This document shows positions 238-16,680 of a DNA stretch of 50,012 bases, in pieces. The stretch spans positions 1 to 50,012 of the IMG/VR virus record IMGVR_UViG_3300032239_001852; one strand, written 5' to 3'. Positions within the stretch are counted from its first letter, which is position 1, and every line of letters starts with the position of its first letter. The notes below the pieces were generated by a model. The model was not told the origin of the DNA. It searched no databases and worked only from the letters and a program-made list of their open reading frames with translations. The position numbers were made by a program, and so were the translations under genes. The stretch comes from a virus. Taxonomy: Duplodnaviria > Caudoviricetes.

Positions 238-239
238 GT

Positions 240-1008: not shown

Positions 1009-1467
1009 ATGAACGAGCGCAATCAACTCATCTATGCCGACTATTTCGGCGGGATGTCCCTTCAGGATGTCGCAAGTAAGTATGGCGTCACGCGCCAGAG
1101 GATTCAGCAGATTGTCTCAAAGACAGGGCCGAAGCGTCCGCGTCTTTCTGGCGGATCAAAGCTTCGCAAGTTTAGCTATGAGGCTATTGCTTCATACTAT
1201 AAGCTGAACACGCCAACACTAGTCGAGGCAGCCAAGAACTTTGGATGTTCAGTCAGCACCATTACTCACGCGCTCGCAGAGCAGGGAGTAGATGGTCAGC
1301 GCAAGATTCGTTTTACTGACGAGTCCATCACGGACATCGTGAGCCGGTATCAGGCCGGAGAGAAGCTGCGGCTGATTGGCGAGACTTATCAGACAAGCGC
1401 GCAGTACATCAACACCATCCTCCGGCGTTCCGGCGCGACGGCTCGTCGTAGGCTCAAGAATGTTTAG
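1009..1467 (+). CDS. multi-HTH DNA-binding protein (N-terminal sigma70 region-4-like HTH)
   Basis: GMSLQDVASKYGVTRQRIQQIV plus two further HTH-like segments (TLVEAAKNFGCSVSTI; KLRLIGETYQTSAQYI); AGGAG RBS. Confidence 0.75.
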   Translation: MNERNQLIYADYFGGMSLQDVASKYGVTRQRIQQIVSKTGPKRPRLSGGSKLRKFSYEAIASYYKLNTPTLVEAAKNFGCSVSTITHALAEQGVDGQRKIRFTDESITDIVSRYQAGEKLRLIGETYQTSAQYINTILRRSGATARRRLKNV

Positions 1468-1714: not shown

Positions 1715-1727
1715 CCGAGATGGGGCA

Positions 1728-3142: not shown

Positions 3143-3145
3143 AGC

Positions 3146-3174: not shown

Positions 3175-3218
3175 TAGGCGTAGCCGGGTTCGGCTATCTA
3201 GTAGGAGAGGAGAGGACA

Positions 3219-3434: not shown

Positions 3435-3778
3435 TGAGAAAGTATATTGATTTCTGGGATAACCTAGACGACCTTTTGATGACGATGTTCCGCGACACCG
3501 AGGCCTATGTGTATGGGCCAGAGAAGATCGGCCGGTGGTGCTGTAATACCTGTACTGCGGCAGAGCTTAGTCTGATGGCTGATGCGGACAACATTAGCGA
3601 TCCGGTGTATTTCTTCTATCACGACCAGAACCGCGATACCGACTCAGATGAGTGCCATCTGGGATGGTCGGGAGGGCAGCGCGCACTTGACCTCATCAAG
3701 CAGTATTGCGACTACTACGCGTTGGTGGTAGACTTGCCTGAGAACGAGGACACAAAGATTCTCGTCAAAGCTAACTAG
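3434..3778 (+). CDS. hypothetical protein (CCxxC...FYHDQ, DUF6891-like)
   Basis: TGATG coupling to the upstream gene; WCCNTC...YFFYHDQ...HLGW. Confidence 0.55.
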   Translation: MRKYIDFWDNLDDLLMTMFRDTEAYVYGPEKIGRWCCNTCTAAELSLMADADNISDPVYFFYHDQNRDTDSDECHLGWSGGQRALDLIKQYCDYYALVVDLPENEDTKILVKAN

Positions 3779-3786
3779 GAGGACTT

Positions 3787-4302
3787 ATGGCAAAGAGGAA
3801 GCCTAATAGCATTGCCGAAACAGGTATGTGGAACGCATACGAGTATTCGGTGAAGCGCGCCAGACTTACAAACAAGTCAGCAGTCATTACAAGCCCACGC
3901 GACCTTGCGGCTCTGTTCCGCGAGTTTGCAGACGCGGAGATGAGTGAGGCCTTGTTTGTCGTGGCGTTCGGTGGTCGCAACAACCTGCTCGGTATCCATC
4001 GGCTCTATTCGGGAACGGCGACCGGTACTTCGGTTTCGGTTGGCGAGATTCTCCGCTCTGGTCTGATGATGGGCTGTGTGGGGTTGGCGTTGGTTCACAA
4101 TCACCCTTCGGGCGATTCGGCGGCCTCTGATGAGGACATCAAGCTTACGGCTGACGTTGCGAAGGCCGCATCGCTGCTCGACCTCACCTTCATTGACCAT
4201 CTGGTTGTGGGGTCTAGTGGTGCGTTCACTAGTATTCGCTCAGAAAAGCCAGTTATCTTTTCCGATGATGATCGCCTGAAAGTGATGGGCGGCTCAAACT
4301 AA
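3787..4302 (+). CDS. radC: RadC-like JAB/MPN domain protein
   Basis: E...LVHNHPSGDSAASDEDIKLT...FIDHLVVG is the canonical RadC JAB motif. Confidence 0.9.
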   Translation: MAKRKPNSIAETGMWNAYEYSVKRARLTNKSAVITSPRDLAALFREFADAEMSEALFVVAFGGRNNLLGIHRLYSGTATGTSVSVGEILRSGLMMGCVGLALVHNHPSGDSAASDEDIKLTADVAKAASLLDLTFIDHLVVGSSGAFTSIRSEKPVIFSDDDRLKVMGGSN

Positions 4303-4306
4303 CTAC

Positions 4307-4382
4307 GACTCGTAGGGGGGTGTCCTCCCTCCCGCGAGTCCTATCCCCCCGGCAAGTGTCCTCTTGCCGGGGGATTACTTTT
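4307..4382 (+). terminator. tandem hairpins / intrinsic terminator, both loops TGTCCT
   Basis: GACTCGTAGGGGGG-TGTCCT-CCCTCCCGCGAGTC, then CCCCCGGCAAG-TGTCCT-CTTGCCGGGGG followed by a T-rich tail. Confidence 0.75.
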
Positions 4383-4542
4383 GTAGCTCCGTCTTATTAC
4401 CCAGGCCGTATACGCGCGCGGAGCTTTCCCCCATACCCCCTCTACTCCGGCTATCAACCGGACTGCAAATAGTTAAGATTCCTTACATAAACCTTATCCG
4501 CAACTTACTTGACCGCATGACACTTCTGTAAGAAACTTCTTG

Positions 4543-4978
4543 TGTCGGGAGCAATCCTAGGAAAAGCTACCGACTAGGTGAGAGTGTTGGGAACGAAGCA
4601 CGCAGCCGAAAAATGCGAAGTGGTTCAGGCGAGTGATGGCCTCTAATCGCTGCTGTAAATGCGGGAGAGGAAGCTTGGGAAGCGGAAGCCGGGGCTCTGG
4701 CCAATACCGGTGGAAGCAACCAACCTACCGGAATCTCTGGGGGCGACGGCTCTCAGGGGTTCCGGGACATAATGAATCCGTTCCGGGTATAGGCCGGATA
4801 GTTGGCAGATAGACGAACTGCCCGCGACGATAAAGATACTGGGCATTTGGACTAACCATCAGGGTGGCCGGTATCAGCAATCAGGCGAGAGCCGAAGGTT
4901 GCCTCGGTGAAAGGGGATAAGCGTCAGTAGCGCGATAGCTGGGGGGTCGGCCGGATGTGGTGTCCGGTCGGCTCCCCG
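4543..4978 (+). ncRNA. putative large structured non-coding RNA, family unknown
   Basis: No credible ORF; upstream TTGACC-N17-GAAACT; many stems with G-U pairs and GNRA loops; ends in a GC hairpin. Confidence 0.6.
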
Positions 4979-4984
4979 TCATAC

Positions 4985-5014
4985 TTGACGGAGTGAATCC
5001 GTTGGGTGTAGTGT
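4985..5014 (+). promoter_or_regulatory. sigma70-type promoter
   Basis: TTGACG-N18-TAGTGT. Confidence 0.65.
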
Positions 5015-5057
5015 TCGTTGTGCCGGTGATTGCCGGTGTAGTGGAAGGAGAGGACAG

Positions 5058-5240
5058 ATGGAACAGATTGAGGTTCCGGTTTGTGAGAACGCCGAAAGGT
5101 GGGCTGACCTACCTCACGAAGGTGTGAAGTCGCGCAGCTTCGCAACTGGTTGGAACGGATTTGAGTATGCGTATGAGGACTTTGTTGTGATGTGCGACGA
5201 GTGCTGGGAGGCGGCGTGCGATACCCGATGGCCTCAATGA
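5058..5240 (+). CDS. small acidic Cys-containing protein
   Basis: GGAGAGGACAG RBS; CDEC motif. Confidence 0.65.
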   Translation: MEQIEVPVCENAERWADLPHEGVKSRSFATGWNGFEYAYEDFVVMCDECWEAACDTRWPQ

Positions 5241-5389
5241 GCCGGAACGCCTGTTCTTGGTGCGGTACTGAGGTAGAAGATGAGCTTCAGCACGAGTCGG
5301 CTCTTTGCGCGGAGTGTTTTGCTGACGCGCAGGTTTCATCCTTAGAGGAGATTGGCGTACAGGAGGGACGAGATAATGGGACGATTTGA
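5237..5389 (+). CDS. small zinc-finger-like protein (50 aa)
   Basis: ATGA overlap; CSWC...CAEC. Confidence 0.6.
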   Translation: MSRNACSWCGTEVEDELQHESALCAECFADAQVSSLEEIGVQEGRDNGTI

Positions 5390-5630
5390 TTGGCCTTACG
5401 ACGAACTTGATGTGCTGGCATTTGCTCGTGCGATGGTTCACGGCGGGTATGCGGAGTATGCGGAAACTAATGACCGGTGCGATTTGTTGCTTGACCTTAT
5501 TGAGCGGCCGTATAAGTGGCGCACGGAGCTTGACGCGTGGGTGGCAGCCGGTCGTCCTGATGTCTTTGATCCTACTGACGAAGCCGAGGTCGAGGTGTTT
5601 GATACGGCGTGTGATTTGACTTCGGCCTAG
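5376..5630 (+). CDS. hypothetical acidic protein
   Basis: AGGAGG RBS upstream of ATG 5376. Confidence 0.65.
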   Translation: MGRFDWPYDELDVLAFARAMVHGGYAEYAETNDRCDLLLDLIERPYKWRTELDAWVAAGRPDVFDPTDEAEVEVFDTACDLTSA

Positions 5631-5645
5631 CGTTGGGTGTAATCT
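5616..5645 (+). promoter_or_regulatory. sigma70-type promoter
   Basis: TTGACT-N18-TAATCT. Confidence 0.7.
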
Positions 5646-5690
5646 GGCATAGCCGGTAGTTGCCGGTGTAGTAGGAAGGAGTAAACGATA

Positions 5691-5927
5691 ATGAGAGATG
5701 TGAACGAGGTCTTGTCGGTTCCGTTCAGCAAGTTCTATGTCGCGGTAGCTCGCAAGGTTGAGGCCACCTGTGGCCTGACCCCTGATGACCTGCCTGATGT
5801 TGATTTCCGTGGGTTCTACCCTGGCGAGCGCGCGACTTTTGGCGACTACCGGCACGCGATTGCCGAGTGCGCGCTGTCGGTGTTGGAGTCGGCAGGGTAT
5901 CCATTGGGCGATGAGGACTACGAATAA
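5691..5927 (+). CDS. hypothetical protein
   Basis: GTAGTAGGAAGGAG RBS. Confidence 0.7.
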   Translation: MRDVNEVLSVPFSKFYVAVARKVEATCGLTPDDLPDVDFRGFYPGERATFGDYRHAIAECALSVLESAGYPLGDEDYE

Positions 5928-6100
5928 TGCGTAGCCTTATTACGAAGGCCGAGTACCTGCGTGAGTCTGAGGCGTGGTTTGCCGCGCAGCGTCGCAATGA
6001 TCGGGTGAAGCTTATCGTTGCGCTGCTAGGACTTGCGGCACTGGTAGCAATAGTGCTAGGGTGGCCTTGCGCGGATGCCGTATGTGCTCCGGCAGGATGA
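5927..6100 (+). CDS. small single-pass membrane protein (57 aa, not in ORF track)
   Basis: TAATG coupling; hydrophobic stretch LIVALLGLAALVAIVLGW; fills the gap exactly. Confidence 0.6.
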   Translation: MRSLITKAEYLRESEAWFAAQRRNDRVKLIVALLGLAALVAIVLGWPCADAVCAPAG

Positions 6101-6112
6101 GATAGGAGAAAG

Positions 6113-6397
6113 ATGATGGGACTAGACGGAACTGAACTCTACGAGCTGAACGAAGCCGGATACCTTCGTATTGACCTCACGGACGATTCGTGGGTGGCCT
6201 TGATGAGCGCGGATGGCGTGAACTTTGGCGGTACGCTGTGGCAGCGCGCCAATGACGGCTACGACTATTCCGCCGGTTGTACGGCGGGGTATCCGGTGCT
6301 CGGTCGCTATGAGGACGCCGACACCATCGCGCGCCGATTGGCTGACTTTATCCTTATGGAGAACGGTGAGGAAGGCCGATTTATCCGCTCCGAATAA
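6113..6397 (+). CDS. hypothetical acidic protein
   Basis: AGGAG RBS; followed by terminator. Confidence 0.7.
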   Translation: MMGLDGTELYELNEAGYLRIDLTDDSWVALMSADGVNFGGTLWQRANDGYDYSAGCTAGYPVLGRYEDADTIARRLADFILMENGEEGRFIRSE

Positions 6398-6427
6398 TAC
6401 GCCGGTGATCCTTTCCACCGGACTACG

Positions 6428-6460
6428 CCCCCAGCTGCTCATCCCAGCTGGGGGTTTTTT
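6428..6460 (+). terminator. intrinsic terminator
   Basis: CCCCCAGCTG-loop-CAGCTGGGGG-TTTTTT. Confidence 0.85.
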
Positions 6461-6545
6461 CATGCGCTCTATCACGGGCGCGACTCCCCCCATACCCCCC
6501 AGCTCGCCGGTTGTGTACCGGTAGCCGCAGCTCAATGTGCGGGAT

Positions 6546-6575
6546 TTGACGCGGCCTAGCGGTTGGTTGTAATCT
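6546..6575 (+). promoter_or_regulatory. sigma70-type promoter
   Basis: TTGACG-N18-TAATCT. Confidence 0.75.
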
Positions 6576-6618
6576 CTCTGTGTCGGGGCTTCCCGATGAG
6601 TAAGGAAGGAGAGCGCAG

Positions 6619-7017
6619 ATGTTCGCATTTGTCGTAAAGGTAGACGAGTCCGGCTCGTGGATTGAGCGGATTGCTTGGGACAACGAGGAAGGCCTCGGCG
6701 AGATGTACCGCACGATTCGGTGCAACCTTGTGGAGATTGCCGGCACCGGCGAGCTTGCTGGCGTTCCGGTGATTCTCTGGGTTGATGAGGAAGGCCTGTA
6801 TCACGAACCAGTACTAATGAACTTGGCGGCGTGCGACTTGCTTGCAGAAGCGAGCAATAGCGCGCCGGCGTATCTGGTCGGTGGCGGTCTTGTTGGTCGG
6901 GCGATACTACTGGTCAATCTTGGGAGCGATCACCGCAGCTTTACGGCTGATGAAGCCGACAAGATTTCCGGCGTTCTCGCTGCCGGCGGGTACACACTCC
7001 GCGAGTCGGTGGCCTGA
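6619..7017 (+). CDS. DUF3846-like protein
   Basis: LVE...ILWVDEEGL...MNLAA...LVGRAILL pattern. Confidence 0.6.
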   Translation: MFAFVVKVDESGSWIERIAWDNEEGLGEMYRTIRCNLVEIAGTGELAGVPVILWVDEEGLYHEPVLMNLAACDLLAEASNSAPAYLVGGGLVGRAILLVNLGSDHRSFTADEADKISGVLAAGGYTLRESVA

Positions 7018-7018
7018 T

Positions 7019-7048
7019 TTGACGCGCTCCGGTGGTCGGGTGTAGTAT
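7019..7048 (+). promoter_or_regulatory. sigma70-type promoter
   Basis: TTGACG-N18-TAGTAT. Confidence 0.7.
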
Positions 7049-7091
7049 CTGATCACCGGAGCTTTCCGGCGTAGTAGGAAGGAAGGAACCT

Positions 7092-7547
7092 ATGAACACA
7101 CAGCAAGCACTAGCAGCAGCGGCGAAGGCCGCCGGTAAGATCACCACCCTAACGGCGTGGAGCGATTGGACAACGCCGCGAACGCTGGAGCGTCGTGAGG
7201 AGAGCGCAGCTGGGCGGCAAGCCGAGCACCGCGCGATTGGTCGCGTGAAGGTGTCCGGTGAAGCTCGCTATGATGAGAGGGGGCGCGTATCGTTCCTGTT
7301 CACAGCGTCCGGTACGCTTGACCGAACGCAAGAGGCAACCGGAATCGTTCTCAATAAGAAGGGCGAGCCGACACTCTCCCTGATTATCGGAGCACCTACC
7401 GAGTACGGATACACTACGGCCTGTCCCAACGCGGGGAAGCTCGGTACTGCTTGCGAGAAGCGGAAGCCGTTCCACGCGCACCGTGGCGTGAACCTGACGC
7501 GCCTCGTGTCGTGGGTCATTGCGGGTGAGGAACAAGTCGAGGGCTAG
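7092..7547 (+). CDS. unknown Cys/His protein, paralog A of a triplicated family
   Basis: Shares long blocks (KKGEP, APTEYGY, ACPNAGK, PFHxHR, NLTRL) with 9438-9905 and 12613-13095. Confidence 0.9.
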   Translation: MNTQQALAAAAKAAGKITTLTAWSDWTTPRTLERREESAAGRQAEHRAIGRVKVSGEARYDERGRVSFLFTASGTLDRTQEATGIVLNKKGEPTLSLIIGAPTEYGYTTACPNAGKLGTACEKRKPFHAHRGVNLTRLVSWVIAGEEQVEG

Positions 7548-7564
7548 CAGCTCGCGTTATCGCC

Positions 7565-7610
7565 GAGGCCGTCGCTCCCATCTGTGCGGGAGTGGCGGCC
7601 TCTTTTTTTT
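7565..7610 (+). terminator. intrinsic terminator, loop ATCTGTGC
   Basis: 15-bp stem followed by T8. Confidence 0.9.
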
Positions 7611-7827
7611 GCCGGACAAGTTCGCCTGTCCAGCTTGGTTTTTTCCGGCTCTTATTAGCAGCTCGCATTTCCCCCCATACCCCCTGTTTTTTTCAGGCTC
7701 TTATTATTGGACTAACTATTCCCCCATACCCCCTGCTTTTTTCACGCCTCTATACAGGGGCGCGCGCACCCCCACACCCCCCTCCTACCGGCGGCATCCC
7801 TACCGGTTGCGCCCTCCGCAACGCCAT

Positions 7828-7855
7828 TTGACTTCTGCCGTGGGAAGCGTAAGAT
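7828..7855 (+). promoter_or_regulatory. sigma70-type promoter
   Basis: TTGACT-N16-TAAGAT. Confidence 0.6.
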
Positions 7856-7905
7856 GGCCTCAGCCGATCTGATGAATCGGCACAGGCACAGGAAGGAAGA
7901 GGACA

Positions 7906-8364
7906 ATGGAAGACCTAACAACTCCGGCGACCAAGTGGGTTCAGAAGTATCTCGGGAATCAGTCGCAGGGTGTCTGCCCGGCTTGCCGCCAGACGCTACC
8001 GGCTGACGCGGCCTATCGCGTCTATGTCCGCTACGGCGACGGCGATGACCTTACCGCCTATGTGCCAACCTACGGAACGGCTCTGGCTGTTCTGATCGGT
8101 TGGGCTGATGATGAGGTCGGTCAATCTTTCTGGTCGTACTTCGAGGCTGACTCGTGGAAGACCATCACCATTGCTCAGGCGGCGATCTTCTCCGGCGATC
8201 CGCTCGCGTTCGCCAACTTCGTAGACGCGACCGGTGGCGAGTCGTCGCCTATCGCGGCTGAGGTGTTTGAGGCCATTGAGTCTACGCTTCTGGATACGCC
8301 GCTCGTCGGTGCTGTCTGGATTGACTCGCTCCATAATCCGGTGATGCCGAGCGACTACCGCTAG
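7906..8364 (+). CDS. hypothetical protein (CxxC near N-terminus)
   Basis: Own promoter, GAGGACA RBS and terminator. Confidence 0.8.
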   Translation: MEDLTTPATKWVQKYLGNQSQGVCPACRQTLPADAAYRVYVRYGDGDDLTAYVPTYGTALAVLIGWADDEVGQSFWSYFEADSWKTITIAQAAIFSGDPLAFANFVDATGGESSPIAAEVFEAIESTLLDTPLVGAVWIDSLHNPVMPSDYR

Positions 8365-8383
8365 ACTTCTCCGGATTTTCTAC

Positions 8384-8425
8384 GAGGCCACTCCCCATCT
8401 GTGCGGGGGGTGGCCTCTTCTCTTT
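8384..8425 (+). terminator. intrinsic terminator, loop ATCTGTGC
   Basis: GAGGCCACTCCCC-ATCTGTGC-GGGGGGTGGCCTC followed by a T-rich tail. Confidence 0.8.
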
Positions 8426-8612
8426 GTAGAGCTTTACACGGGCAACAGCTCCACACGGGCAACGTTTTTTCTGGGTGCTATTGCTCGCGCGATCATTTCC
8501 CCCATACCCCCTGCCCCATTTTTTCAGGCCACCTATTACTGCCGGCTATTTCCCCCATACCCCCTTGACCAGAGGCCACCCCTAGGGGGGGTGTACCGGC
8601 ATCGCGTCCTAT

Positions 8613-8641
8613 TTGACGTTGCCCAAGTGTCGATGTACTCT
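8613..8641 (+). promoter_or_regulatory. sigma70-type promoter with a 17-bp operator-like motif in the spacer
   Basis: TTGACG-N17-TACTCT; GTTGCCCAAGTGTCGAT at 8618-8634. Confidence 0.65.
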
Positions 8642-8691
8642 CTCGGTGTTGGGGTTGTAGGCACAGACCCGCCCTGACGGAAGGAGTCCCT

Positions 8692-9177
8692 ATGAACGGG
8701 GAGAAGAACCAGCACCGGATAATCGAGGTGCGGGCAGCAATCGCAGCGGTCAATGATTCGCTGACCGGTGAGGAGTTTGGCGAGGCCGCCCAGATCAACA
8801 CCGAGAACGGCGGAGGCCATCGCCTTGTCGTTGCGCCGGCGGCATTCTGGAACGATCACGCCTACCGCGACTGCGACAGCGACTCGGTCGAGGTGCGGTC
8901 ATCGGCTACCGATTGGAGCAACGATGACGGTTCCTATGTCGTCTTGGTGATGAGCGACGAGTTCTTGATGGAGTTGGTCTCGGACGCTGCCCACTACTCA
9001 AACGGCTGGGGTGAGGACTACGAGCCCCTGATGGAGTCGGCACGCCGTACCATCGTCGCGCTCTGGGAGCAGTTCCCGGCGATGATGAAGGATGATGCCG
9101 ACCTGCGGACGAGCCGCGACAACCTGCGCTGGTCGCTTGGCATTGAGCGCAACGATGTGGCGGTGATCACGGGCTAG
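8692..9177 (+). CDS. hypothetical acidic protein
   Basis: GAAGGAG RBS; own promoter and terminator. Confidence 0.8.
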   Translation: MNGEKNQHRIIEVRAAIAAVNDSLTGEEFGEAAQINTENGGGHRLVVAPAAFWNDHAYRDCDSDSVEVRSSATDWSNDDGSYVVLVMSDEFLMELVSDAAHYSNGWGEDYEPLMESARRTIVALWEQFPAMMKDDADLRTSRDNLRWSLGIERNDVAVITG

Positions 9178-9202
9178 CCAATAATCGACACTCGGGCAAC
9201 GA

Positions 9203-9230
9203 GAGGCCGCTCCTTCGGGGGCGGCCTTTC
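9203..9230 (+). terminator. intrinsic terminator (cUUCGg loop)
   Basis: AGGCCGCTCC-TTCG-GGGGCGGCCT followed by a T-rich tail. Confidence 0.75.
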
Positions 9231-9359
9231 TGTTGTCCGTTGATACCGGCGGCCAGTTTTTTTCACGCCCCTATACACGAGCCGGCCAGCCCCCCATACC
9301 CCCTTGGTTTCGGTTCCGAGTCGGCCAGTCGAGAGCCGGTCAATGGCTAGCGCCTCGGT

Positions 9360-9389
9360 TTGACTCGTGGCCGCGTGTGGGTGTAGACT
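9360..9389 (+). promoter_or_regulatory. sigma70-type promoter
   Basis: TTGACT-N18-TAGACT. Confidence 0.75.
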
Positions 9390-9437
9390 GGCAGCAGCCG
9401 GTCTGATGAACCGGCAAGCACAGAGAGGAGAACCGTT

Positions 9438-9905
9438 ATGGACTACACGGAAGCCCTAGCAGCAACGGCCAAGAGTAAAGGCCTCGTCGTCGTACTGACG
9501 GCGTGGAGCGCACCGACCAAGCCGAAGGAGTTCGAGGATCGGGCAACGGCCGCAGCCGGCCGGCAGGCCGACCATCGCGCCCTAGGCCGAGTCAAGGCGA
9601 CCGGCGAGGCCTTCACCGATGAGCAGGGGCGCATTACCTTCCAGTTCAAGGTGGCCGGCCAAGTGAACCGCGACGTTCACCCTGCCGGTGTGTACCTGAC
9701 CAAGAAGGGCGAGCCTTGCGTGGACATTGTGGTATCTGCGCCGACGGAGTACGGCTACAAGACGGCCTGCCCCAATGCCGGCAAAGCGGGAACCGCGTGC
9801 GTCAAGCGCCGGCCGTTCCATTGCCACCGCACCATCAACCTCACCCGGCTCGTGTCGTGGCTGATTGCCGGAGAGGAGCAGGTCAGCCGGCAGCAGGGCT
9901 GCTAG
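9438..9905 (+). CDS. unknown Cys/His protein, paralog B
   Basis: Clear similarity to paralogs A and C; GAGGAG RBS. Confidence 0.9.
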   Translation: MDYTEALAATAKSKGLVVVLTAWSAPTKPKEFEDRATAAAGRQADHRALGRVKATGEAFTDEQGRITFQFKVAGQVNRDVHPAGVYLTKKGEPCVDIVVSAPTEYGYKTACPNAGKAGTACVKRRPFHCHRTINLTRLVSWLIAGEEQVSRQQGC

Positions 9906-9927
9906 TCGTCGCCGGCCTCGGCCGGTC

Positions 9928-9964
9928 GCCCCGTCGTCGGTGTCGTGCCGGCGGCGGGGCTTCT
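9928..9964 (+). terminator. intrinsic terminator
   Basis: GCCCCGTCGTCGG-loop-CCGGCGGCGGGGC-TTCT. Confidence 0.65.
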
Positions 9965-10199
9965 CATTGCCCGTGTGTCGATTTTTTCCCGTACCTATTA
10001 GGCCTGCCGGATTCCCCCCATACCCCCCACGTTTTTTTCAGGCCGGTATTAGGCCGCCGTCATTCCCCCCCATACCCCCTTTCATTCATTAGTTCATTCT
10101 TCATTCCTCTATACATACGCAGCTACACGCGTGAATGGCCTATGTCGATGAGCGGTCAGCACCCGTGATTGGCCTATCCTCATGGCACGGGCAACGTAT

Positions 10200-10227
10200 T
10201 TGACTTGGCCTATGGGTGTGGGATACT
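10200..10227 (+). promoter_or_regulatory. sigma70-type promoter
   Basis: TTGACT-N16-GATACT. Confidence 0.5.
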
Positions 10228-10276
10228 TGACTCCTCGGCGGCCTTGCTTCGCTGAGTAGCACAGAGGAGGTTCCGA

Positions 10277-10657
10277 ATGTTTCGGTTCCTAGTGTTCGTA
10301 CCAAAGCCCGACACCGGTGGCGGTCAGCGGGTCAATCTGGCGAGCGGGTGGTCGTATGACGAAACCGAGGCCGAGGCCTTCGGTGATGTGATGCCCACGG
10401 TTCGAGGGATGATTCAGGCAATCGGCGCGGCGCTTGAGATTGACTCGGTTCGTGAGTTCGGCACCGAGTCCGACTCCGAAGAAGCCGCTCCTGCTTGGGC
10501 TGTTGAGGTGATGACCGAAGCCGGTGTTGATGGCCTGAACGGATCGTGGGTTGAGCTGGACGGCAAGCCGTTGGCACTCGTCGTAGCCGTAGGTCATTCG
10601 CTCACGCTCGGCGAGGACGAGATGGCGCGCGCGCTGTATCAGGCATCGCACGAGTAG
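10277..10657 (+). CDS. hypothetical acidic protein
   Basis: GCACAGAGGAGG leader/RBS; own terminator. Confidence 0.8.
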   Translation: MFRFLVFVPKPDTGGGQRVNLASGWSYDETEAEAFGDVMPTVRGMIQAIGAALEIDSVREFGTESDSEEAAPAWAVEVMTEAGVDGLNGSWVELDGKPLALVVAVGHSLTLGEDEMARALYQASHE

Positions 10658-10680
10658 CCGCTCCGGCTGGGGGCAACTGA

Positions 10681-10717
10681 GGCCACCCTCACCCTTCGGG
10701 GTGGGGGTGGTTTCTTT
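10681..10717 (+). terminator. intrinsic terminator (CCCTCACCC-TTCG-GGGTGGGG family)
   Basis: UUCG hairpin with T-rich tail; near-identical copies at 11378 and 12251. Confidence 0.8.
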
Positions 10718-10947
10718 ATGCGCGCTCATTGACCGAGTCTCGAGTTTCCCCCATACCCCCGCACATGAAGCGGGCATCGTTTTTTCCACGGGCTATTACT
10801 GGACTAACATTCCCCCCCATACCCCCTTCTATTCATTCGGTTATCTATTAGGCATACCTATTACGCGCAGCTCTACACGCATCATTCCTGGTGCGCGGGC
10901 AGCGATGTCGAGACTTGGGCAACGCGCTGGGGCTCTGATGGCTGGAC

Positions 10948-10977
10948 TTGCATTGACCCCGACCGGCCGCGTACAAT
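10948..10977 (+). promoter_or_regulatory. sigma70-type promoter
   Basis: TTGCAT-N18-TACAAT. Confidence 0.65.
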
Positions 10978-11020
10978 GGCAAAGCCAGCAGTTGCTGGTG
11001 GCACAGCTAGGAGGACAGTC

Positions 11021-11353
11021 ATGGCAGAGAAGATGTTCCGGGTGGAGATCGTCAAGGACGGGGAGACCATCCGCCGCTGGTTCCGTCAGCATCACCACGC
11101 CGAGGAGTACCTCATCGAGTTCGCGGTCGTCGAGTTTGGTGGCGTTCGGCCGGCATCGGGCAACGACGCCCGTGAGGTCATCCTCGACAGCGACAGCGTG
11201 GCATGGTGCTCGTTGGATGAAGTCGAAGCTCAGGAGGTTGGGGCTTGCCCCTCTTGCGACATCCAGGGCGGCTGGGACGGCGGCTACTGCGAGCCGTGCG
11301 GCTACCAGTTCGGCAGCCTGACGGACGACGACGGCGAGCCGCTCGTTCGCTAA
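11021..11353 (+). CDS. hypothetical protein with C-terminal zinc ribbon
   Basis: AGGAGGACA RBS; CPSC...CEPCG. Confidence 0.8.
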   Translation: MAEKMFRVEIVKDGETIRRWFRQHHHAEEYLIEFAVVEFGGVRPASGNDAREVILDSDSVAWCSLDEVEAQEVGACPSCDIQGGWDGGYCEPCGYQFGSLTDDDGEPLVR

Positions 11354-11377
11354 CGCTGACCGCACCCGGCCAGCATC

Positions 11378-11409
11378 GAAGCCCTCACCCTTCGGGGTGG
11401 GGGCTTCTT
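11378..11409 (+). terminator. intrinsic terminator
   Basis: GAAGCCCTCACCC-TTCG-GGGTGGGGGCTTC-TT. Confidence 0.8.
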
Positions 11410-11721
11410 GTTGCCCGCTGATCGATTTTTTCATGACCCTATTGTGGGCTCGACTCTTCCCCCCATACCCCCGCTGTTGCCCTGTACCGGCCGCGCGGAT
11501 GTTTGTTCATGCCGCTATGTCGAGACTCGGTCAATCCCCCCATACCCCCGCGATGCGAGCTCGCAGGTTTTTTCTGTGGGCTATTACTCCAAACATATTC
11601 CCCCCCATACCCCTTCTATTCTTTGTTCATCTATATATCCTTCCCTACGCATTCGTACCAGGCTTCACCGGTGAACAGGCAGCATCTATCGGCGGTCGGC
11701 GTTGCGCCTGGTGAGCCGCAG

Positions 11722-11750
11722 TTGCATTGTTGCCCGTGTGCCGGTAATCT
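11722..11750 (+). promoter_or_regulatory. sigma70-type promoter with operator-like motif in the spacer
   Basis: TTGCAT-N17-TAATCT; GTTGCCCGTGTGCCGGT at 11729-11745. Confidence 0.65.
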
Positions 11751-11801
11751 CTACCTAGTACGGCGGCCATGTTCCGTCGTCAAGCACAGAGGAGGTCAGA
11801 G

Positions 11802-12227
11802 ATGACCGCAGCAACAGAGGCCAAGTGGCGCATGACCGGCGAGTGGGCAACTGCCGCCAACATCACGGGTACGGCGTGGCGTTCGGCCGACGGCTTCACC
11901 TTCGACGAGGTGAACGAGGAAGGCCTGGTTTACCGCTACTCGATGATCGTGATCGCCGCCGATGGCGTCCACGCTTCGGAGGTTCGGGCGAAGGCGTGCT
12001 ACGGCCTCGTCAATGCGTTCGCCGTCAATCACAGCGTAGACGAGTGGAACGATCAGGTGCTCGCCGGCCTTCGGGCAGCGGCTCGGCTCGGCATCACGGG
12101 GGAAGTCGATCTCTGCGTGAAGCATCAGTTGCTGGACTGCGACGAGATGTATCACGCCGCAGCGGTTCTCTTGGAGAATGAGGACGAGGACAACTGCGAC
12201 TCTTGCGACAAGGCCGCGACGATCTAG
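11802..12227 (+). CDS. hypothetical protein (CxxH...CxxC)
   Basis: GCACAGAGGAGG leader/RBS. Confidence 0.8.
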   Translation: MTAATEAKWRMTGEWATAANITGTAWRSADGFTFDEVNEEGLVYRYSMIVIAADGVHASEVRAKACYGLVNAFAVNHSVDEWNDQVLAGLRAAARLGITGEVDLCVKHQLLDCDEMYHAAAVLLENEDEDNCDSCDKAATI

Positions 12228-12250
12228 CCCCATACCGGCGAACGGGCAGC

Positions 12251-12280
12251 AAGGCCTCACCCTTCGGGGTGGGGCTTTGT
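12251..12280 (+). terminator. intrinsic terminator
   Basis: AAGGCCTCACCC-TTCG-GGGTGGGGCTTT. Confidence 0.75.
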
Positions 12281-12612
12281 TGTTGTTGGGGCTGCTACTG
12301 CTCGGCCTCAGTTTCCCCCATACCCCCGCTCTGTCGATGCTTGGGCAACGCGCACCCGGTGAACGGGCATCATTTTTTTAGGCTGCTATTAGTCTTCTAT
12401 TGTTCCCCCCCATACCCCCGTCGTTGTTGTTGCAGCTTCATTCGTTATGGTTGTTGGGCGTAGGCGAGGCGATACCGGCGAACGGGCATCATCGCTGGGG
12501 TGGCGTTGCGCCTGATGCGTCGTGGTTGCGTTGGGGCGTGCGATCTGCGAGAATCTGGTTGTCGGGGAACACAGACGGAGCCGCTTGGTTCCGCTCCGAC
12601 AGGGAGAACACA

Positions 12613-13095
12613 ATGGCAGGGATGACCTACGCAGCGGGACTCGCCGCAGCCGCCAAGAGTGGCGGCAAGATCGTCAAGGTCGAGGCGTGGAGCGCGCCGA
12701 CCAGCGTTCAGGAGAAGGCACGCCGCGAGGCGAACGCCGCCGCCAACTTCGCCGACCATCGCGCGCTCGGTCGAGTCAAGATCACAGGCGAAGCGTTCAG
12801 CACGCCGAAGGGCGAGGTGTTCCACTTCTCCGTGGTCGGTCAGGTGAATCGTGATGTCCACGCCACGGGTGTGTATCTCACCAAGAAGGGCGAGCCCGTG
12901 GTCGATCTCGTCGTGATGGCTCCGACCGAGTACGGCTACACGGTCGCTTGTCCGAACGCAGGGAAGGCGGGGTCAGCGTGCGAGAAGCGACGACCCTTCC
13001 ACTCCCACCGAACGGTGAACCTCACCCGCTTGACGGCGTGGATCATCGGCGGCGAGTCGCAGCCTCTCGGCGAAGGCTCCCCGCTCGGCTGCTAG
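12613..13095 (+). CDS. unknown Cys/His protein, paralog C
   Basis: AGGGAG RBS before ATG 12613; aligns from its N-terminus with paralogs A and B. Confidence 0.9.
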   Translation: MAGMTYAAGLAAAAKSGGKIVKVEAWSAPTSVQEKARREANAAANFADHRALGRVKITGEAFSTPKGEVFHFSVVGQVNRDVHATGVYLTKKGEPVVDLVVMAPTEYGYTVACPNAGKAGSACEKRRPFHSHRTVNLTRLTAWIIGGESQPLGEGSPLGC

Positions 13096-13110
13096 GCGGT
13101 CGGTTGCAAC

Positions 13111-13142
13111 GAAGCCTCGTCCCTTCGGGGGCGGGGCTTCTT
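13111..13142 (+). terminator. intrinsic terminator
   Basis: GAAGCCTCGTCCC-TTCG-GGGGCGGGGCTTC-TT. Confidence 0.75.
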
Positions 13143-13279
13143 GCTTTCGTAGCTACTTTTTTTCGCGCCTTATTATGTTGTTTGTTATCCCCCCCATACC
13201 CCCGCGCATGGTTGACCGCGCGCCGGGCGGCGGCCCGTCGAAGGGCGGTCAGCGGCTCGGTTGGGCTAGGTGGTCGCGT

Positions 13280-13308
13280 TTGACTTGGTCGCATGGGTGT
13301 CGTAATCT
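13280..13308 (+). promoter_or_regulatory. sigma70-type promoter
   Basis: TTGACT-N17-TAATCT. Confidence 0.8.
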
Positions 13309-13358
13309 TCAAGTGTCGGAGGTAGGCACAGACCCGAACCGACAGAAGGAGCAAACAG

Positions 13359-13586
13359 ATGAGCAAGGTAGCGCAGGTGCTAATGATCGCGGTGGTCGCG
13401 GTGTCGGCTCTTGGACTCGGCGCAGCCTTCGGCTATGCCGGCGGTATCGGCTTGGTGGTCGGCGAGTTCGCGTTCTGGGTCAGCCCAGGGATGGCAATCA
13501 TCGGCGGCTTCGCAGGTTTCGGACTCTTCGTGGCGGCGTGGATCGTTGGCGATGAGGTCGGGATGCGACTGAACCGCGCCGACTAG
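13359..13586 (+). CDS. small membrane protein (about 2 TM segments)
   Basis: Gly-rich hydrophobic sequence; AAGGAG RBS. Confidence 0.75.
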   Translation: MSKVAQVLMIAVVAVSALGLGAAFGYAGGIGLVVGEFAFWVSPGMAIIGGFAGFGLFVAAWIVGDEVGMRLNRAD

Positions 13587-13601
13587 TAGACCCAAACAAT
13601 C

Positions 13602-13632
13602 AGCCCCGCCCCCACGGGGGGTGGGGCTTTTT
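13602..13632 (+). terminator. intrinsic terminator ending the early arm
   Basis: AGCCCCGCCCC-loop-GGGGTGGGGCT-TTTT. Confidence 0.8.
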
Positions 13633-13843
13633 GTTGCCCGATGATAGCTGCTGCCCGTATGCCGGCTGCCCGCCGTTGGCCGTAGATCGACATAGCCCGC
13701 CCCAACCCCTCGCCCAGACCCGATCAGCCCCGCCCGTGCGCGTTCACTGGGAGCAAATCAACATTTCACCAGATCCCCTCAACCCCTCTCCCCACAACAA
13801 CAGCTGGGGGCAACAAGAGAAGCCTGGATTTTTTTAAAATACC

Positions 13844-13919
13844 TGGTGGGGATGCCTGGGCTCGAACCAGGAACCGCCGAGATATAAGCTCTTTGCTCTA
13901 ACCATTGAGCTACATCCCC
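13844..13919 (-). tRNA. tRNA-Ile (UAU), with a weak anticodon stem
   Basis: Cloverleaf GGGGATG...CATCCCC-ACCA; loop CTTATAT; T-loop TTCGAGC. Confidence 0.75.
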
Positions 13920-13924
13920 GAAGA

Positions 13925-13999
13925 TGGAGAGCCGAGTGGGGATCGAACCCACGACCTAGGGCTTAAAAGACCCCTACTCTACCGCTGAGCTACCGGCCC
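13925..13999 (-). tRNA. tRNA-Lys (UUU)
   Basis: Cloverleaf; loop CTTTTAA; encoded CCA. Confidence 0.9.
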
Positions 14000-14002
14000 G
14001 TA

Positions 14003-14077
14003 TGGCTCCGGAGGTAGGGCTCGAACCTACGACCAGGCGATTAACAGTCGCCCGCTCTACCACTGAGCTACTCCGGA
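14003..14077 (-). tRNA. tRNA-Asn (GUU)
   Basis: Cloverleaf TCCGGAG...CTCCGGA-GCCA; GGCGA-CTGTTAA-TCGCC. Confidence 0.95.
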
Positions 14078-14463
14078 ATGCGTCCATTATAGTACTTGCA
14101 CGTCCGACACTCACGTTCACCATTGGGATATCGGTACGTATTCTCTGGCGTATATTCGTGTCCATGAATGCAGTGGGTTTTTCGCTCCTGAGCAGCAAGG
14201 CCACGCTGGACGTTGACTTTTCGCGTGACTGCCTCTAGATGTTCTGGACTGACACACTTTCGAACGCGACAGAGGTGATCGATGTCCAACCCCTTCGGTG
14301 GCTCGCCCTTGAAATAGCGGTAGCTCCACCGGTGTGAATTGATTTTTTTGCCCTGATCCTTGAATGCACCATACCCACTCCGGTCAAAGGCTCCGGTCCA
14401 CTCCCAGCAGCCGTTGGCCTGGTTGATTTCGACGTAGTGCATGAACCGTGAGACAGACTTCAT
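14068..14463 (-). CDS. HNH homing endonuclease (HNH_3 type with C-terminal Zn domain)
   Basis: CWEWTG...GYG...HRWSY...DHLCRVRKCVSPEHL...KTHCIHGH...CRTC. Confidence 0.9.
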   Translation of the reverse strand: MKSVSRFMHYVEINQANGCWEWTGAFDRSGYGAFKDQGKKINSHRWSYRYFKGEPPKGLDIDHLCRVRKCVSPEHLEAVTRKVNVQRGLAAQERKTHCIHGHEYTPENTYRYPNGERECRTCKYYNGRIPE

Positions 14464-14591
14464 CGGGAGAGTATAGGGGTGCCGGACAGTTCTTGCAACG
14501 TTTTGGTTTAGGGCAGCGAGAACAGGGCTTTTTAGGGCTGCTAGAAGGGTGATTTGCGCCACGGAGAGCGGACTTTTCCCCCATCCTTGTG

Positions 14592-14897
14592 TCAGAGCCC
14601 AAATCGTCGCATAAGCTCCTCTGCAGCGACGAGTCCGTTGAGCTGCTTTGGCGCCGCATCCGCACGCTCGTAGTAGAGGATAAAGGGGATGCTCTTGATG
14701 TCGTAGGATTGAACAAGCTCTGCATGCTTGTCAACGTTGATCTTGACGATGTTGAGTGCCGGACGCAGCACCTTGAGTCGCTCAAGCTCTTTGCTGATGG
14801 CCTTGCACGGCTGGCACCAATCTGCGTAAAAGTCCAGGACCGTCGGCCCCTTCTTGAGTTCAGCGGCGATGTTCAGGGTATGGGTTGCCTTTGGCAT
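14592..14897 (-). CDS. trxA: thioredoxin
   Basis: DFYADWCQPCK...KINVD...IKSIP; AAGGAG RBS before ATG 14897. Confidence 0.9.
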   Translation of the reverse strand: MPKATHTLNIAAELKKGPTVLDFYADWCQPCKAISKELERLKVLRPALNIVKINVDKHAELVQSYDIKSIPFILYYERADAAPKQLNGLVAAEELMRRFGL

Positions 14898-15034
14898 GTT
14901 GGTGCTCCTTACAGATGGGACAGCAAAGGGGCTGGATTTCTCCAACCCCTCTGTGTGGTGGATAGTACCTAGTACAGCCCCTACCAAAATTTAAAAAATT
15001 TTAGCTACGCTGCGCGAGGACCCCGAATAGTACG

Positions 15035-15256
15035 TTAGTTGGCCTTGCTTCGTCCAGACCCTGATGTACCAATCTTGTGTGAGGAGTTTTCCACCGGTTC
15101 GGTCATTCGATTCGCTATTTTGGCCATAACGTCGAGCAACCCAGATAGTTCAACCATGACCGAGTGAGTAAGTGTGTTTTTTTCCTTACCCTCTGGCATG
15201 GATAACGCACGTTTAACATCGGCTGAGATCTTTTGTAGATCAAACTCTTTTGGCAT
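15035..15256 (-). CDS. hypothetical protein
   Basis: Translationally coupled to ssb. Confidence 0.6.
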   Translation of the reverse strand: MPKEFDLQKISADVKRALSMPEGKEKNTLTHSVMVELSGLLDVMAKIANRMTEPVENSSHKIGTSGSGRSKAN

Positions 15257-15639
15257 TAGAATGGAAGCTCCTCAAGTGACTCTTGCATGGTTGCACGTGA
15301 GGACTCTCCCTCATCCTTGCCCTTGCCTGAACGCTTGAGGACCTGGATGAATTTTGCGGTGATGGCAATTTCCGTGTGTTCGACCTCATTCTTGTCGGTC
15401 CACGATGAAATTTCCGGCGTTCCTTCAATCCAAATCAAATCGCCCTTCTGGACGATCTTGTCAGCAAGCTCTGCCCGGCCATCCCAACAGGCGATTGGAT
15501 ACCACGTCGACTTCTCCTCGCCGTTAGCATCCTTTGAGCCGTGGACTGCAACGTTGAAGTTCGCCACCTGGCGGCCCTTCTGTGTTGCGCGAATCTGCGG
15601 CTTTGCACCGACATAACCAATCAACTGAACCTTAATCAT
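15256..15639 (-). CDS. ssb: single-stranded DNA-binding protein
   Basis: VQLIGYVG...VANFNVA...TWY...KGDLIWIEG; acidic tail ending ELPF. Confidence 0.92.
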   Translation of the reverse strand: MIKVQLIGYVGAKPQIRATQKGRQVANFNVAVHGSKDANGEEKSTWYPIACWDGRAELADKIVQKGDLIWIEGTPEISSWTDKNEVEHTEIAITAKFIQVLKRSGKGKDEGESSRATMQESLEELPF

Positions 15640-16006
15640 CGTTTGCTACCTCCGTAATACTAAGGACGACTTTCTCGTCGTCACACTTCTTATTCAGCTC
15701 CCACACCCTTGGCAGGAACCGAGCATCATTAACTCCCAACCCGGCCGCTACGGCATCGAGTGTGAGCTTCAAAATGTTGTCCGCATCAATCGTACGCTTT
15801 ACGTAGATCCACACATCAACGATGAGCATTGTATCACGCTCACATGACCAGCTTTGCTGCTTTGCCACTTCGCCGGTGATGATTGTCGTGAGTTTTTTCC
15901 ACGCTTTTGCTTCCCGTGTCATGTAGATGTACGATTTTCGCGCGCGGTAGGCGGAGTTCCAGCTGGGTGGACGCCCTAACAGCGTAATCACCAGCGGTTC
16001 GTGCAT
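15632..16006 (-). CDS. rusA: RusA-like Holliday junction resolvase
   Basis: PPSWN...DADNILKLTLDA...NDARF. Confidence 0.85.
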   Translation of the reverse strand: MHEPLVITLLGRPPSWNSAYRARKSYIYMTREAKAWKKLTTIITGEVAKQQSWSCERDTMLIVDVWIYVKRTIDADNILKLTLDAVAAGLGVNDARFLPRVWELNKKCDDEKVVLSITEVANDD

Positions 16007-16680
16007 TACCGATTCATCTTTGGGCGCAAATCAGAGCCGCCGAACTTGACAACGGTGCACATTTCGGTCAAACGAGAGACCGTTGCGCCGTACCCAAGGT
16101 CATTTAGCTCATCGAGCGTGCGATTGGACGTGACTACTGTAGGTAGCATCGCCGAATACCGGCTCTCAACAATTACATAGAGCCGTTCGGTCGCCCAATC
16201 CGTCGCGCGCTCCTTGCCAAAGTCGTCCAAAACGACGACAGAGGCTCGGTTGCAGATGAATTGGAAGTCCGTTTGCACGGAATCGTCCGAAAACTTAAAG
16301 CTGGACCGCACTGCATCCAAAAAGAGCGGCACATTGATGAATCGCGCGTTCAATAACCCGTTTTCCACCTTGTGCCGGAGTGCAGCAACGGTCAAATGGG
16401 TCTTTCCGACACCCGGAGTGCCAACAAAGAAGAATCCCCGGTCTGTAAGCGGTGCTTCGGCCCACTCTTTTGCTACTTTTACGGCCGTTTTTGCCTCTGG
16501 CAGCTCTTTAAGCGAACTAAACGACGCATGCATGTACCTTTTTGACACTCCAGCCTTTTCCAGTCGGTCATTGGCGACGTTTGGGGCCGGCGGTTCGTCC
16601 TGACGACGCTTTACGGCGCCCTCTGGCGTCATGATGTACGCAAAGTCAAGGTTTGGGTCAATCTTGGATAATCCCATCAT
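16006..16680 (-). CDS. DnaC/IstB-like AAA+ ATPase (helicase loader)
   Basis: GTPGVGKT Walker A; VVVLDDFGKE Walker B; R...LPTVVTSN; SRL..MC. Confidence 0.9.
   Translation of the reverse strand: MMGLSKIDPNLDFAYIMTPEGAVKRRQDEPPAPNVANDRLEKAGVSKRYMHASFSSLKELPEAKTAVKVAKEWAEAPLTDRGFFFVGTPGVGKTHLTVAALRHKVENGLLNARFINVPLFLDAVRSSFKFSDDSVQTDFQFICNRASVVVLDDFGKERATDWATERLYVIVESRYSAMLPTVVTSNRTLDELNDLGYGATVSRLTEMCTVVKFGGSDLRPKMNR

What the first reader, a model, noticed from the sequence alone, without database searches (positions are those of the whole stretch)
6455..13203. Tripartite fixed-spacing element T6-7 - N8 - TAT - N~16 - CCCCCATACCCCC
Seen: in 14 of 18 copies the C-box is preceded by a TAT (mostly TATTA) starting 22-25 nt before the central ATA. 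A T6-7 run ends 7-9 nt before that. T-runs start at 6455, 7639, 7687, 7737, 8465, 8519, 9257, 9982, 10032, 10780, 11426, 11568, 12373 and 13157. The linkers differ in sequence but keep their length. All copies are intergenic, share one orientation and can be tandem (~50-bp period at 7639-7782). I saw none beyond 13.3 kb. On the minus strand it reads GGGGGTATGGGGG-N~15-TAATAG-N7-GAAAAAA, which resembles upstream-box/-10/+1 geometry. Inference, as alternatives: an antisense promoter for a phage sigma factor or activator that shuts off early cassettes; a phased binding or recombination site; a priming or DNA-entry signal; a G-quadruplex former when tandem.
Basis: partly seen in the sequence, partly recalled or inferred. 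Interest (0 to 1): 0.82.

Follow-up and report, generated by a model that had tools for sequence, protein, structure and literature searches.

The report
Three-part spacer motif between phage cassettes
A phage places the same 46-base three-part DNA motif between the stop signal of one small gene and the start signal of the next, 14 times in full, and a phage protein with three predicted DNA-gripping modules likely binds it, likely to keep transcription of one gene from running into the next.

Summary
In detail: 18 C-boxes, 14 with T6-7 and TAT at fixed spacing, all on the coding strand and all between a hairpin terminator and a sigma70-type promoter of single-gene cassettes in a tailed phage. 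Spacing holds in 37 of 50 copies from six contigs, while linkers differ. Relatives fill the same slots with other forms: (TCATCAT)n plus (CCCC-NTA)n, or (GTTATGN)n arrays, with a 7-bp period. An antisense promoter and a G-quadruplex are not supported for this form. Best reading, inferred and not shown: an oriented binding site for the phage's three-HTH protein (1009-1467), acting as a stoperator-like roadblock that insulates each cassette. Support: a 3- or 2-HTH gene heads the early region in 8 of 9 related records, and the window's allele tracks this element form. Against: no binding data, and a distance test over 11 genomes does not single the protein out. The motif also serves as a crossover point for cassette loss. 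The scan had already noted these cassette arrays in relatives carrying the second form (e1-5890526, e1-6035418); the fixed-spacing form, the third form and the candidate reader are added here. Host unknown.

The parts
1009..1467 (+). Three-HTH protein (152 aa), candidate reader
   Evidence: Pfam Sigma70_r4/HTH; model of three separate three-helix domains with basic linkers; co-occurrence tests
4409..4440 (+). Partial element (TAT at -24 and C-box, no T6) between terminator 4346-4373 and promoter -35 at 4509
6455..6499 (+). Full element; terminator 6427-6455, promoter -35 at 6546
7639..7781 (+). Three tandem full elements (7639-7684, 7687-7733, 7737-7781); terminator 7565-7602, -35 at 7828; two copies in relatives
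8465..8564 (+). Two tandem full elements (8465-8511, 8519-8564); terminator 8384-8417, -35 at 8613
9257..9303 (+). Full element; hairpin at about 9202-9230, -35 at 9360
9982..10079 (+). Two tandem full elements (9982-10027, 10032-10079); terminator 9928-9960, -35 at 10200
10748..10826 (+). Lone C-box (10748-10760) plus full element (10780-10826); terminator 10689-10710, -35 at 10948
11426..11614 (+). Full element 11426-11472, C-box 11537-11549 without T-run, full element 11568-11614; terminator 11389-11403, -35 at 11722
12315..12419 (+). Lone C-box (12315-12327) plus full element (12373-12419); hairpin at about 12254-12280, -35 at 12526
13157..13203 (+). Full element; terminator 13111-13140, -35 at 13280
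13602..13628 (+). Last cassette terminator, with no element behind it
7092..7547 (+). Paralog A1, predicted Sm-like/WYL barrel (rival reader)
9438..9905 (+). Paralog A2 (the modelled copy)
12613..13095 (+). Paralog A3

Best explanation
The element is an oriented, fixed-spacing motif that sits between the terminator of one single-gene cassette and the promoter of the next; it is likely a double-stranded binding site for the phage's three-HTH protein (1009-1467), and the bound protein would act as a roadblock that keeps transcription of one cassette from running into the next promoter. Shown: the position, orientation, spacing, confinement to the early region, lineage-specific forms, and cassette loss with a junction inside the motif. 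Use as a crossover point for cassette loss is read as a by-product.
For: Box spacing stays within 30-33 nt from T-run end to central A in all 37 full copies (of 50), while paralogous linkers are 50% identical; this suggests a rigid protein footprint. The distance to the next -35 is free, 53-131 nt, so the motif is not part of that promoter. It lies in 10 of the 11 spacers that hold both a terminator and a promoter. It is absent at the 4 promoters that follow a stop codon without a terminator (1728, 3146, 5616, 7019) and after the last terminator. In complete relative G004, 16 of 18 motif clusters lie in the cassette region, all in the coding orientation, and one lies just above the three-HTH gene's promoter. 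The model shows three separate HTH domains (pLDDT 81, pTM 0.40). Its best Foldseek rows are Mos1 and Tc3 bipartite DNA-binding domains and the CRISPR-repeat binder Cbp2 (E 0.09-0.15, weak). A three-HTH gene is found in 6 of 9 related records and a two-HTH protein with a GRP linker in the early region of 2 more. The three-HTH protein and its neighbour 1460-1714 are 97-98% identical to the one other same-form contig that holds them, but at most 66% and 56% identical to second-form genomes, the sharpest contrast of 15 genes. In 4 of 4 further runs, contigs that bridge same-form elements occur beside 90-95% identical DNA over the three-HTH gene.
Against: No binding, transcript or termination data. 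The rank correlation of gene distance with element distance over 11 genomes is 0.32 for the three-HTH gene, seventh of 15 (range 0.06-0.42). The predicted recognition helices are nearly the same in first-form and second-form phages. Only one same-form contig links the gene to the elements; the read-run evidence is on unlinked contigs from runs chosen for sharing the region. No tandem-HTH gene was found in G006 (best E 0.024), which has only 3 array clusters. The window has no element above its own three-HTH gene. VIA Z values are at most 7.8 and generic for HTH domains. A 46-bp site is longer than the roughly 25 bp that Cbp1/Cbp2 cover (PMC3597662, passages). Most slots already have a strong hairpin terminator, so the need for a second block is unexplained. 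Divergence between forms covers the whole spacer, not the motif alone, and in two of three slots tested the motif is no more diverged than its flanks or its same-form orthologues.
Confidence: 0.42

Rival explanations
1. The element is bound by the same or another phage DNA-binding protein but works on the downstream promoter, as an upstream activating or shut-off site acting by looping or wrapping.
For: Every copy has a promoter 53-131 nt downstream and none follows the last terminator. In the window the ten distances cluster in helical phase (R 0.65 at 10.5 bp; p 0.012, or 0.026 if the three shortest are fixed).
Against: The phasing is not repeated in the relative L016 (R 0.37) or in the pooled distinct distances (R 0.35). 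Orthologous distances shift by 13 or 23 nt. Five promoters in the same region have no element.
Confidence: 0.2
2. The element is mainly a recombination joint that lets cassettes be lost, gained and reordered, as PeSLs do in T4-type phages.
For: Cassette order is permuted among 13 genomes or contigs. A contig of run X2 joins 10055 to 10829 through a hybrid C-box, removing cassette 10277-10657. Tandem copy number varies, 3 versus 2. The moving unit runs from -35 to terminator.
Against: Homologous crossover gains nothing from fixed-length linkers that are only 50% alike. Junctions also fall elsewhere: a contig of run X20 joins the 7828 promoter leader to a 9438-like gene, and gene bodies are replaced inside conserved flanks. 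No integrase or site-specific recombinase was found in G004.
Confidence: 0.15
3. The element acts as single-stranded RNA on read-through transcripts, as a Rho-loading tract or as a site for the phage's Sm-like paralogs (7092, 9438, 12613), whose ring could read the 7-nt period.
For: The coding strand is 39% C and 15% G and folds no better than shuffles (z -0.7 to +0.6 in 4 of 4 single copies). The paralog model matches Sm-like, Hfq, WYL and YaeO/Rof folds (best Z 6.0).
Against: The linkers are 31% G. The third form is G-rich on the coding strand. Family A was not found in G009, G010 or G006, of which G009 and G010 have arrays (records 65% and 53% complete). Z under 8 gives only the fold class. 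Rho loading would not need fixed spacing (own knowledge).
Confidence: 0.1
4. The element marks programmed single-strand nicks, or a DNA-entry, packaging or priming signal, in virion DNA.
For: All copies are on one strand and clustered in one part of the genome, as the nick sites of phage tf are (PMC3517423, passages). The phage encodes an HNH nuclease.
Against: The strict tie to terminator-promoter spacers is not needed for nicking. Contig depth in run X1 falls smoothly (21, 16, 12) with no two-fold plateau over the region (contigs only, weak). In G004 the terminase genes lie about 22 kb from the window's left-end homologue.
Confidence: 0.06
5. The element is an antisense promoter for a phage sigma factor or activator, or a G-quadruplex former.
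For: Fixed spacing resembles box/-10/+1 geometry. Second-form relatives have 6-17 canonical four-tract motifs on the template strand.
Against: TAnnnT in -10 position in 1 of 14 copies; no sigma factor in the window or G004; 0 canonical quadruplex motifs in the window region and 0-3 per strand in third-form genomes at loops up to 7.
Confidence: 0.07

Closest known systems
Stoperators of Cluster A mycobacteriophages (L5, TipsytheTRex; PMC9283540, passages seen)
   Same: Many asymmetric sites, intergenic, oriented with transcription; read by a monomer with linked HTH-type domains (reader only inferred here).
   Different: 46-bp three-part site instead of 13 bp; confined to the cassette region; candidate reader has three HTHs and matched no such repressor in the structure searches; no integrase found in the complete relative.
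Cbp1/Cbp2 CRISPR-repeat binding proteins (PMC10883916, PMC3597662; passages seen)
   Same: Three-HTH and two-HTH versions with basic linkers that lie 5' to 3' along an asymmetric repeat and shape transcription of an array; Cbp2 (2LVS) is among the best, though weak, fold matches.
   Different: Archaeal host proteins on CRISPR arrays with repeats of about 25 bp; here a phage gene array. The fold match is generic and homology is not shown.
PeSL cassettes of T4-type phages (PMC2839356 parts 2-3 of 6; PMC4122927 part 1 of 3)
   Same: Terminator, sigma70 promoter and SD flank single unknown genes that are gained, lost and shuffled.
   Different: PeSLs have an AT-rich stretch above -35 and no separate fixed-spacing motif in the parts read; this phage is not T4-like; the motif form is lineage-specific.
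17-bp repeats of Cluster O mycobacteriophages (PMC4351075, passages seen)
   Same: Repeated presumed protein sites of unknown function that also serve as crossover points for gene loss.
   Different: Those are palindromic, unoriented and partly inside genes.

Membership tests
Stoperator | Asymmetric site oriented with transcription, many copies, intergenic | tested here: met
   18 of 18 on the coding strand between genes
Stoperator | Bound by the immunity repressor of a temperate phage | tested here: inconclusive
   No integrase among window proteins or the G004-only ORFs scanned; binding untested; an XRE-like HTH exists at 18476-18724
Stoperator | Sites spread across the genome | tested here: not met
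   None beyond 13.2 kb in the window; 16 of 18 clusters within 9 kb in G004
Stoperator | Orientation-dependent block of elongation | not testable with these tools
   Needs a reporter or in vitro transcription
Cbp1/Cbp2 system | Two or three HTH domains joined by basic linkers | tested here: met
Cbp1/Cbp2 system | Homology to Cbp proteins | tested here: inconclusive
   Foldseek E 0.15, VIA Z 6.2 at rmsd 12.7 over 87 residues, tied with many HTH proteins; 2LVS is not among the 36 sequences matched by the profile search
Cbp1/Cbp2 system | Target is a CRISPR repeat array | tested here: not met
   Copies flank protein-coding cassettes; no Rfam CRISPR repeat match in 1-15000
PeSL | Intergenic terminator hairpin, sigma70 promoter and SD around single unknown genes | tested here: met
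PeSL | Gene gain, loss and reordering at these spacers | tested here: met
PeSL | T4-type phage with an AT-rich stretch above -35 | tested here: not met
   DnaC-like loader, RusA, SSB and a phrog_752/SU10-type capsid; no T4-type polymerase found; spacers are GC-rich
PeSL | Cassette mini-circles during infection | not testable with these tools
   Needs inverse PCR on infected cells
Antisense sigma70 promoter | TAnnnT -10 hexamer 4-9 nt before the start | tested here: not met
   1 of 14
Intramolecular G-quadruplex | Four tracts of 3 or more G with loops up to 7-12 nt | tested here: not met
   0 in window 4.3-13.7 kb on either strand; met in second-form relatives
Rho utilisation site | C-rich, G-poor, unstructured RNA | tested here: inconclusive
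   39% C, 15% G, no fold above shuffles, but linkers 31% G and a single copy is only 46 nt
Programmed nick site (T5, tf) | Nicks in one strand of virion DNA | not testable with these tools
   Only contigs available

The most novel reading that the evidence does not exclude
A family of freshwater phages partitions a shufflable array of single-gene cassettes with 7-bp-period repeat sites read by its own two- or three-HTH protein: a phage counterpart of archaeal Cbp1/Cbp2 repeat chromatin. Site and reader diverge together, so that phages which swap genes in one host each control only cassettes set in their own spacers.
Probability: 0.2. Interest if true: 0.75.

Novelty: new variant of a known kind. 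Interest (0 to 1): 0.5.

Why it matters
It names a concrete, small, testable protein-DNA pair for how a phage keeps a mix-and-match array of unknown early genes separately expressed. If right, it extends stoperator-type and Cbp1-type logic to a widespread uncultured phage family and offers a 46-bp polar insulator with natural specificity variants. If wrong, the motif still marks the joints of a fast-evolving cassette array.

Tried and rejected
No match in the GenBank phage collection by blastn of the region or tblastn of the capsid protein. Host not found: no relative of the SSB in GTDB genomes; the Atlas gives only generic viral SSB clusters; a guess at Limnocylindria, from recall, gave 2 listed papers with no evident link to this phage (listing only). 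The full pattern in GTDB genomes gives 20 single scattered matches and no array, so a copied host array is not supported. No RNA holder listed among 21 runs. Helical phasing to the promoter: weak and not repeated. Extra terminators at the T-runs: apart from 6455, the T-run is separated from any hairpin or follows a C-box. A plus-strand promoter for an alternative sigma factor (C-box as a sigma32-like -10, recalled consensus) was considered and dropped because no sigma factor was found and other forms lack the spacing. Stop codons in all frames on the minus strand and primase triplets were considered and not tested. Foldseek gave nothing for paralog A at E<=0.001, nor did the Atlas; Pfam gave only E>=0.018. 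Literature searches that found no description of this element or family: (listings only; the library lacks most subscription papers). No supplements were opened; those of PMC2839356 and PMC4122927 may hold PeSL alignments that bear on the comparison. The single-match loci were not examined.
Full report
Setting. The window is a whole 50,012-base virus record. It encodes portal, prohead protease, major capsid and tail proteins, an SSB/RusA/DnaC-like loader/exonuclease block and three tRNAs: a tailed phage. Its closest relatives are IMG/VR records of 78-91 kb, one with direct terminal repeats at 85.7 kb. No GenBank phage matches and the host is unknown. From about 4.3 to 13.6 kb the + strand carries single-gene cassettes: a TTGAC/TTGCG-N16-18-TAnnnT promoter, a leader hairpin, an AGGAGG-type SD, a gene of 60-160 codons and a GC-rich hairpin terminator.

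Observation. Confirmed to the base. There are 18 C-boxes on +, and 14 carry T6-7 and TAT. Over the window and five related contigs (two of which overlap almost identically), 37 of 50 copies are full. In these the T-run ends 7-9 nt before TAT (27 at 8), TAT starts 22-25 nt before the central A, and the T-run ends 30-33 nt before it. Linkers of different window copies are 50% identical on average, 72% at most. The distance from the last C-box to the next -35 is free, 53-131 nt. The motif lies in 10 of 11 spacers that have both a terminator and a promoter (the exception is 4985). It lies in none of the 4 spacers where a promoter follows a stop codon directly, and not behind the last terminator.

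Relatives. The strict pattern hits 6 viral contigs, 5 of them relatives of the window and 1 unrelated single match. Other close relatives, some with paralog A 95-97% identical, fill the same slots with a second form: (TCATCAT/TCATTAT)n followed by (CCCC-NTA)n tracts. More distant relatives (exonuclease 54-66% identical) carry a third form, (GTTATGN)n or (GTTAGGG)n arrays often followed by inverted CATAAC/CCTAAC arms, starting at a terminator or directly at a stop codon and lying above a promoter (the output was cut). The second and third forms have a 7-bp period. Each genome is uniform in form: 17 C5ATAC4 in each first-form sequence against 0-3 in 12 second-form ones. In the complete record G004, 16 of 18 clusters lie within 5.9-14.6 kb, all in coding orientation. 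Homology blocks between the window and second-form genomes mostly run from -35 through the gene to the terminator and break in the spacer. A slot-by-slot alignment tempers this. At 4433 the motif (53-75%) and the linker behind it (35-65%) are less conserved than the flanks (78-91%). At 6455 the motif is as conserved as its flanks (71-79%), and at 7639 copy-number change hides any signal. The forms are thus related variants that share a CCCC-NTA-CCCC core and a TTAT/TCAT/CTAT part.

Antisense promoter: 1 of 14 copies has TAnnnT in place. No sigma factor turned up in the 53 window proteins or in 59 ORFs from the part of G004 that the window lacks; only region-4-like HTHs did. G-quadruplex: none in the window region, 6-17 on the template strand of four second-form genomes, 0-3 per strand in four third-form ones at loops up to 7, so it is not the common denominator. 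Single copies fold no better than shuffles.

Candidate reader. Gene 1009-1467 is predicted to fold as three separate HTH domains on basic linkers. The linker reads KRPR here and RRGRRP or RRGRKP in third-form homologues, resembling AT-hook or homeodomain arms that bind AT-rich minor grooves (own knowledge). Foldseek's best rows are Mos1, Tc3 and Cbp2, all at E 0.09-0.15, and VIA gives only generic HTH matches. In six frames of nine related records a three-HTH gene is found in six. G007 and G008 lack it but encode a 98-99 aa two-HTH protein with a GRP linker in the early region, in G007 with an array beginning at its stop codon (103 of the 129 ORFs were scanned). G006 has neither and has only three array clusters. 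Among 15 early genes, this gene and its neighbour show the sharpest split: 2-3% distance to the other first-form contig, at least 34-44% to second-form genomes. Five more genes also group the two first-form sequences and eight do not, and the rank test over 11 genomes puts the three-HTH gene seventh. Four of four further runs hold contigs that bridge first-form elements and contigs 90-95% identical over the three-HTH gene at similar depth; these are unlinked, the piece table was cut, and shared ancestry alone could give the same. The recognition helices hardly differ between the first and second forms, which fits a shared core site but not a switch in specificity.

Mechanism. Shown: an oriented, rigidly spaced motif tied to terminator-promoter junctions of a cassette array, under lineage-specific change. 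Inferred: one three-HTH monomer lies along the three boxes, as the three HTHs of Cbp1 lie 5' to 3' along a CRISPR repeat (PMC10883916, passages), and blocks polymerase that escapes the terminator, as proposed for oriented stoperators (PMC9283540, passages). I prefer a block over activation for three reasons: the site does not overlap the promoter, its distance to the promoter is free, and it appears where the phage already invests in a terminator, while in the third form it can stand at a stop codon in place of one.

Shuffling. Cassette order differs among 13 genomes or contigs. One contig of run X2 lacks cassette 10277-10657 with the junction inside a hybrid element, and tandem copy number varies. 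Junctions also fall in promoter leaders and at gene edges, so the motif is one of several shared stretches used, as for PeSLs (PMC2839356, parts 2-3 of 6; PMC4122927, part 1 of 3) and Cluster O repeats (PMC4351075, passages). Note e1-5890526 reached the PeSL comparison on another genome.

Other reader. The three paralogs fold as an Sm-like barrel with invariant Cys and His residues; the best matches are YaeO/Rof, GerQ, WYL domains and Hfq at Z 5.5-6.0, which gives the fold class only. They could bind the element as RNA, but the family was not found in two array-bearing, incomplete records.

Verdict. A real element and a new variant of known kinds. It works most plausibly like a stoperator or Cbp1 site inside a PeSL-like array, and it fails a defining test for each of those families. 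Five literature searches found no description of it. Confidence that it is a site for a phage DNA-binding protein is about 0.6; for the specific roadblock model, 0.42. Interest 0.5.

Noticed in passing
window 7092-7547, 9438-9905, 12613-13095: Three paralogous early proteins with a predicted Sm-like/WYL/Hfq barrel and invariant Cys-Cys-His-His; top fold match is the Rho inhibitor YaeO/Rof (Z 6.0, tied with other Sm-like folds). Possible phage RNA- or ssDNA-binding family with no Pfam entry.
   Followed up: partly
   Followed up: partly
L122 (G007) 400-13800, L128 (G008), L094: Third-form phages replace the -35 box by their own fixed boxes (CCTTAKCGGTGGGATCG; CTCCATAGTAGGTTT; TTCGGTGGATT) above TGGCATWGT: lineage-specific promoters that imply a phage activator.
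   Followed up: no
L129 16294-19300, L130 600-4000 (G009); L225; L212: Arrays of GTTAGGG, which contain the vertebrate telomere hexamer (recalled), between early genes.
   Followed up: partly
window, leaders before 7906, 8692, 9438, 10277, 11021, 11802, 12613, 13359: A GCACAG/ACACAG word and a leader hairpin precede the SD of most cassettes; one swap junction falls there.
   Followed up: no
window 13760-13840: Conserved C-rich stretch and T7A4 run at the strand switch between cassettes and tRNAs, nearly the same in G004; candidate origin or terminator zone.
   Followed up: no
window 1-20000, run X1: Contig depth falls smoothly from 21 to 12 left to right, as a headful packaging series or a replication gradient from the left would give (contigs only).
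   Followed up: no
window 20771-22945, 23754-26303, 34281-43967: Portal fused to a phosphatase/kinase-like domain, prohead protease fused to ferritin-like and Tudor domains, and a 3228-aa protein with a ddrB-like ParB domain.
   Followed up: no
window 13844-13919: tRNA with anticodon TAT (Ile), an unusual anticodon in bacteria by my recall.
   Followed up: no
window 1460-1714: 84-aa protein of no known family that splits first- from second-form genomes even more sharply than the three-HTH gene; found only in these two groups.
   Followed up: partly
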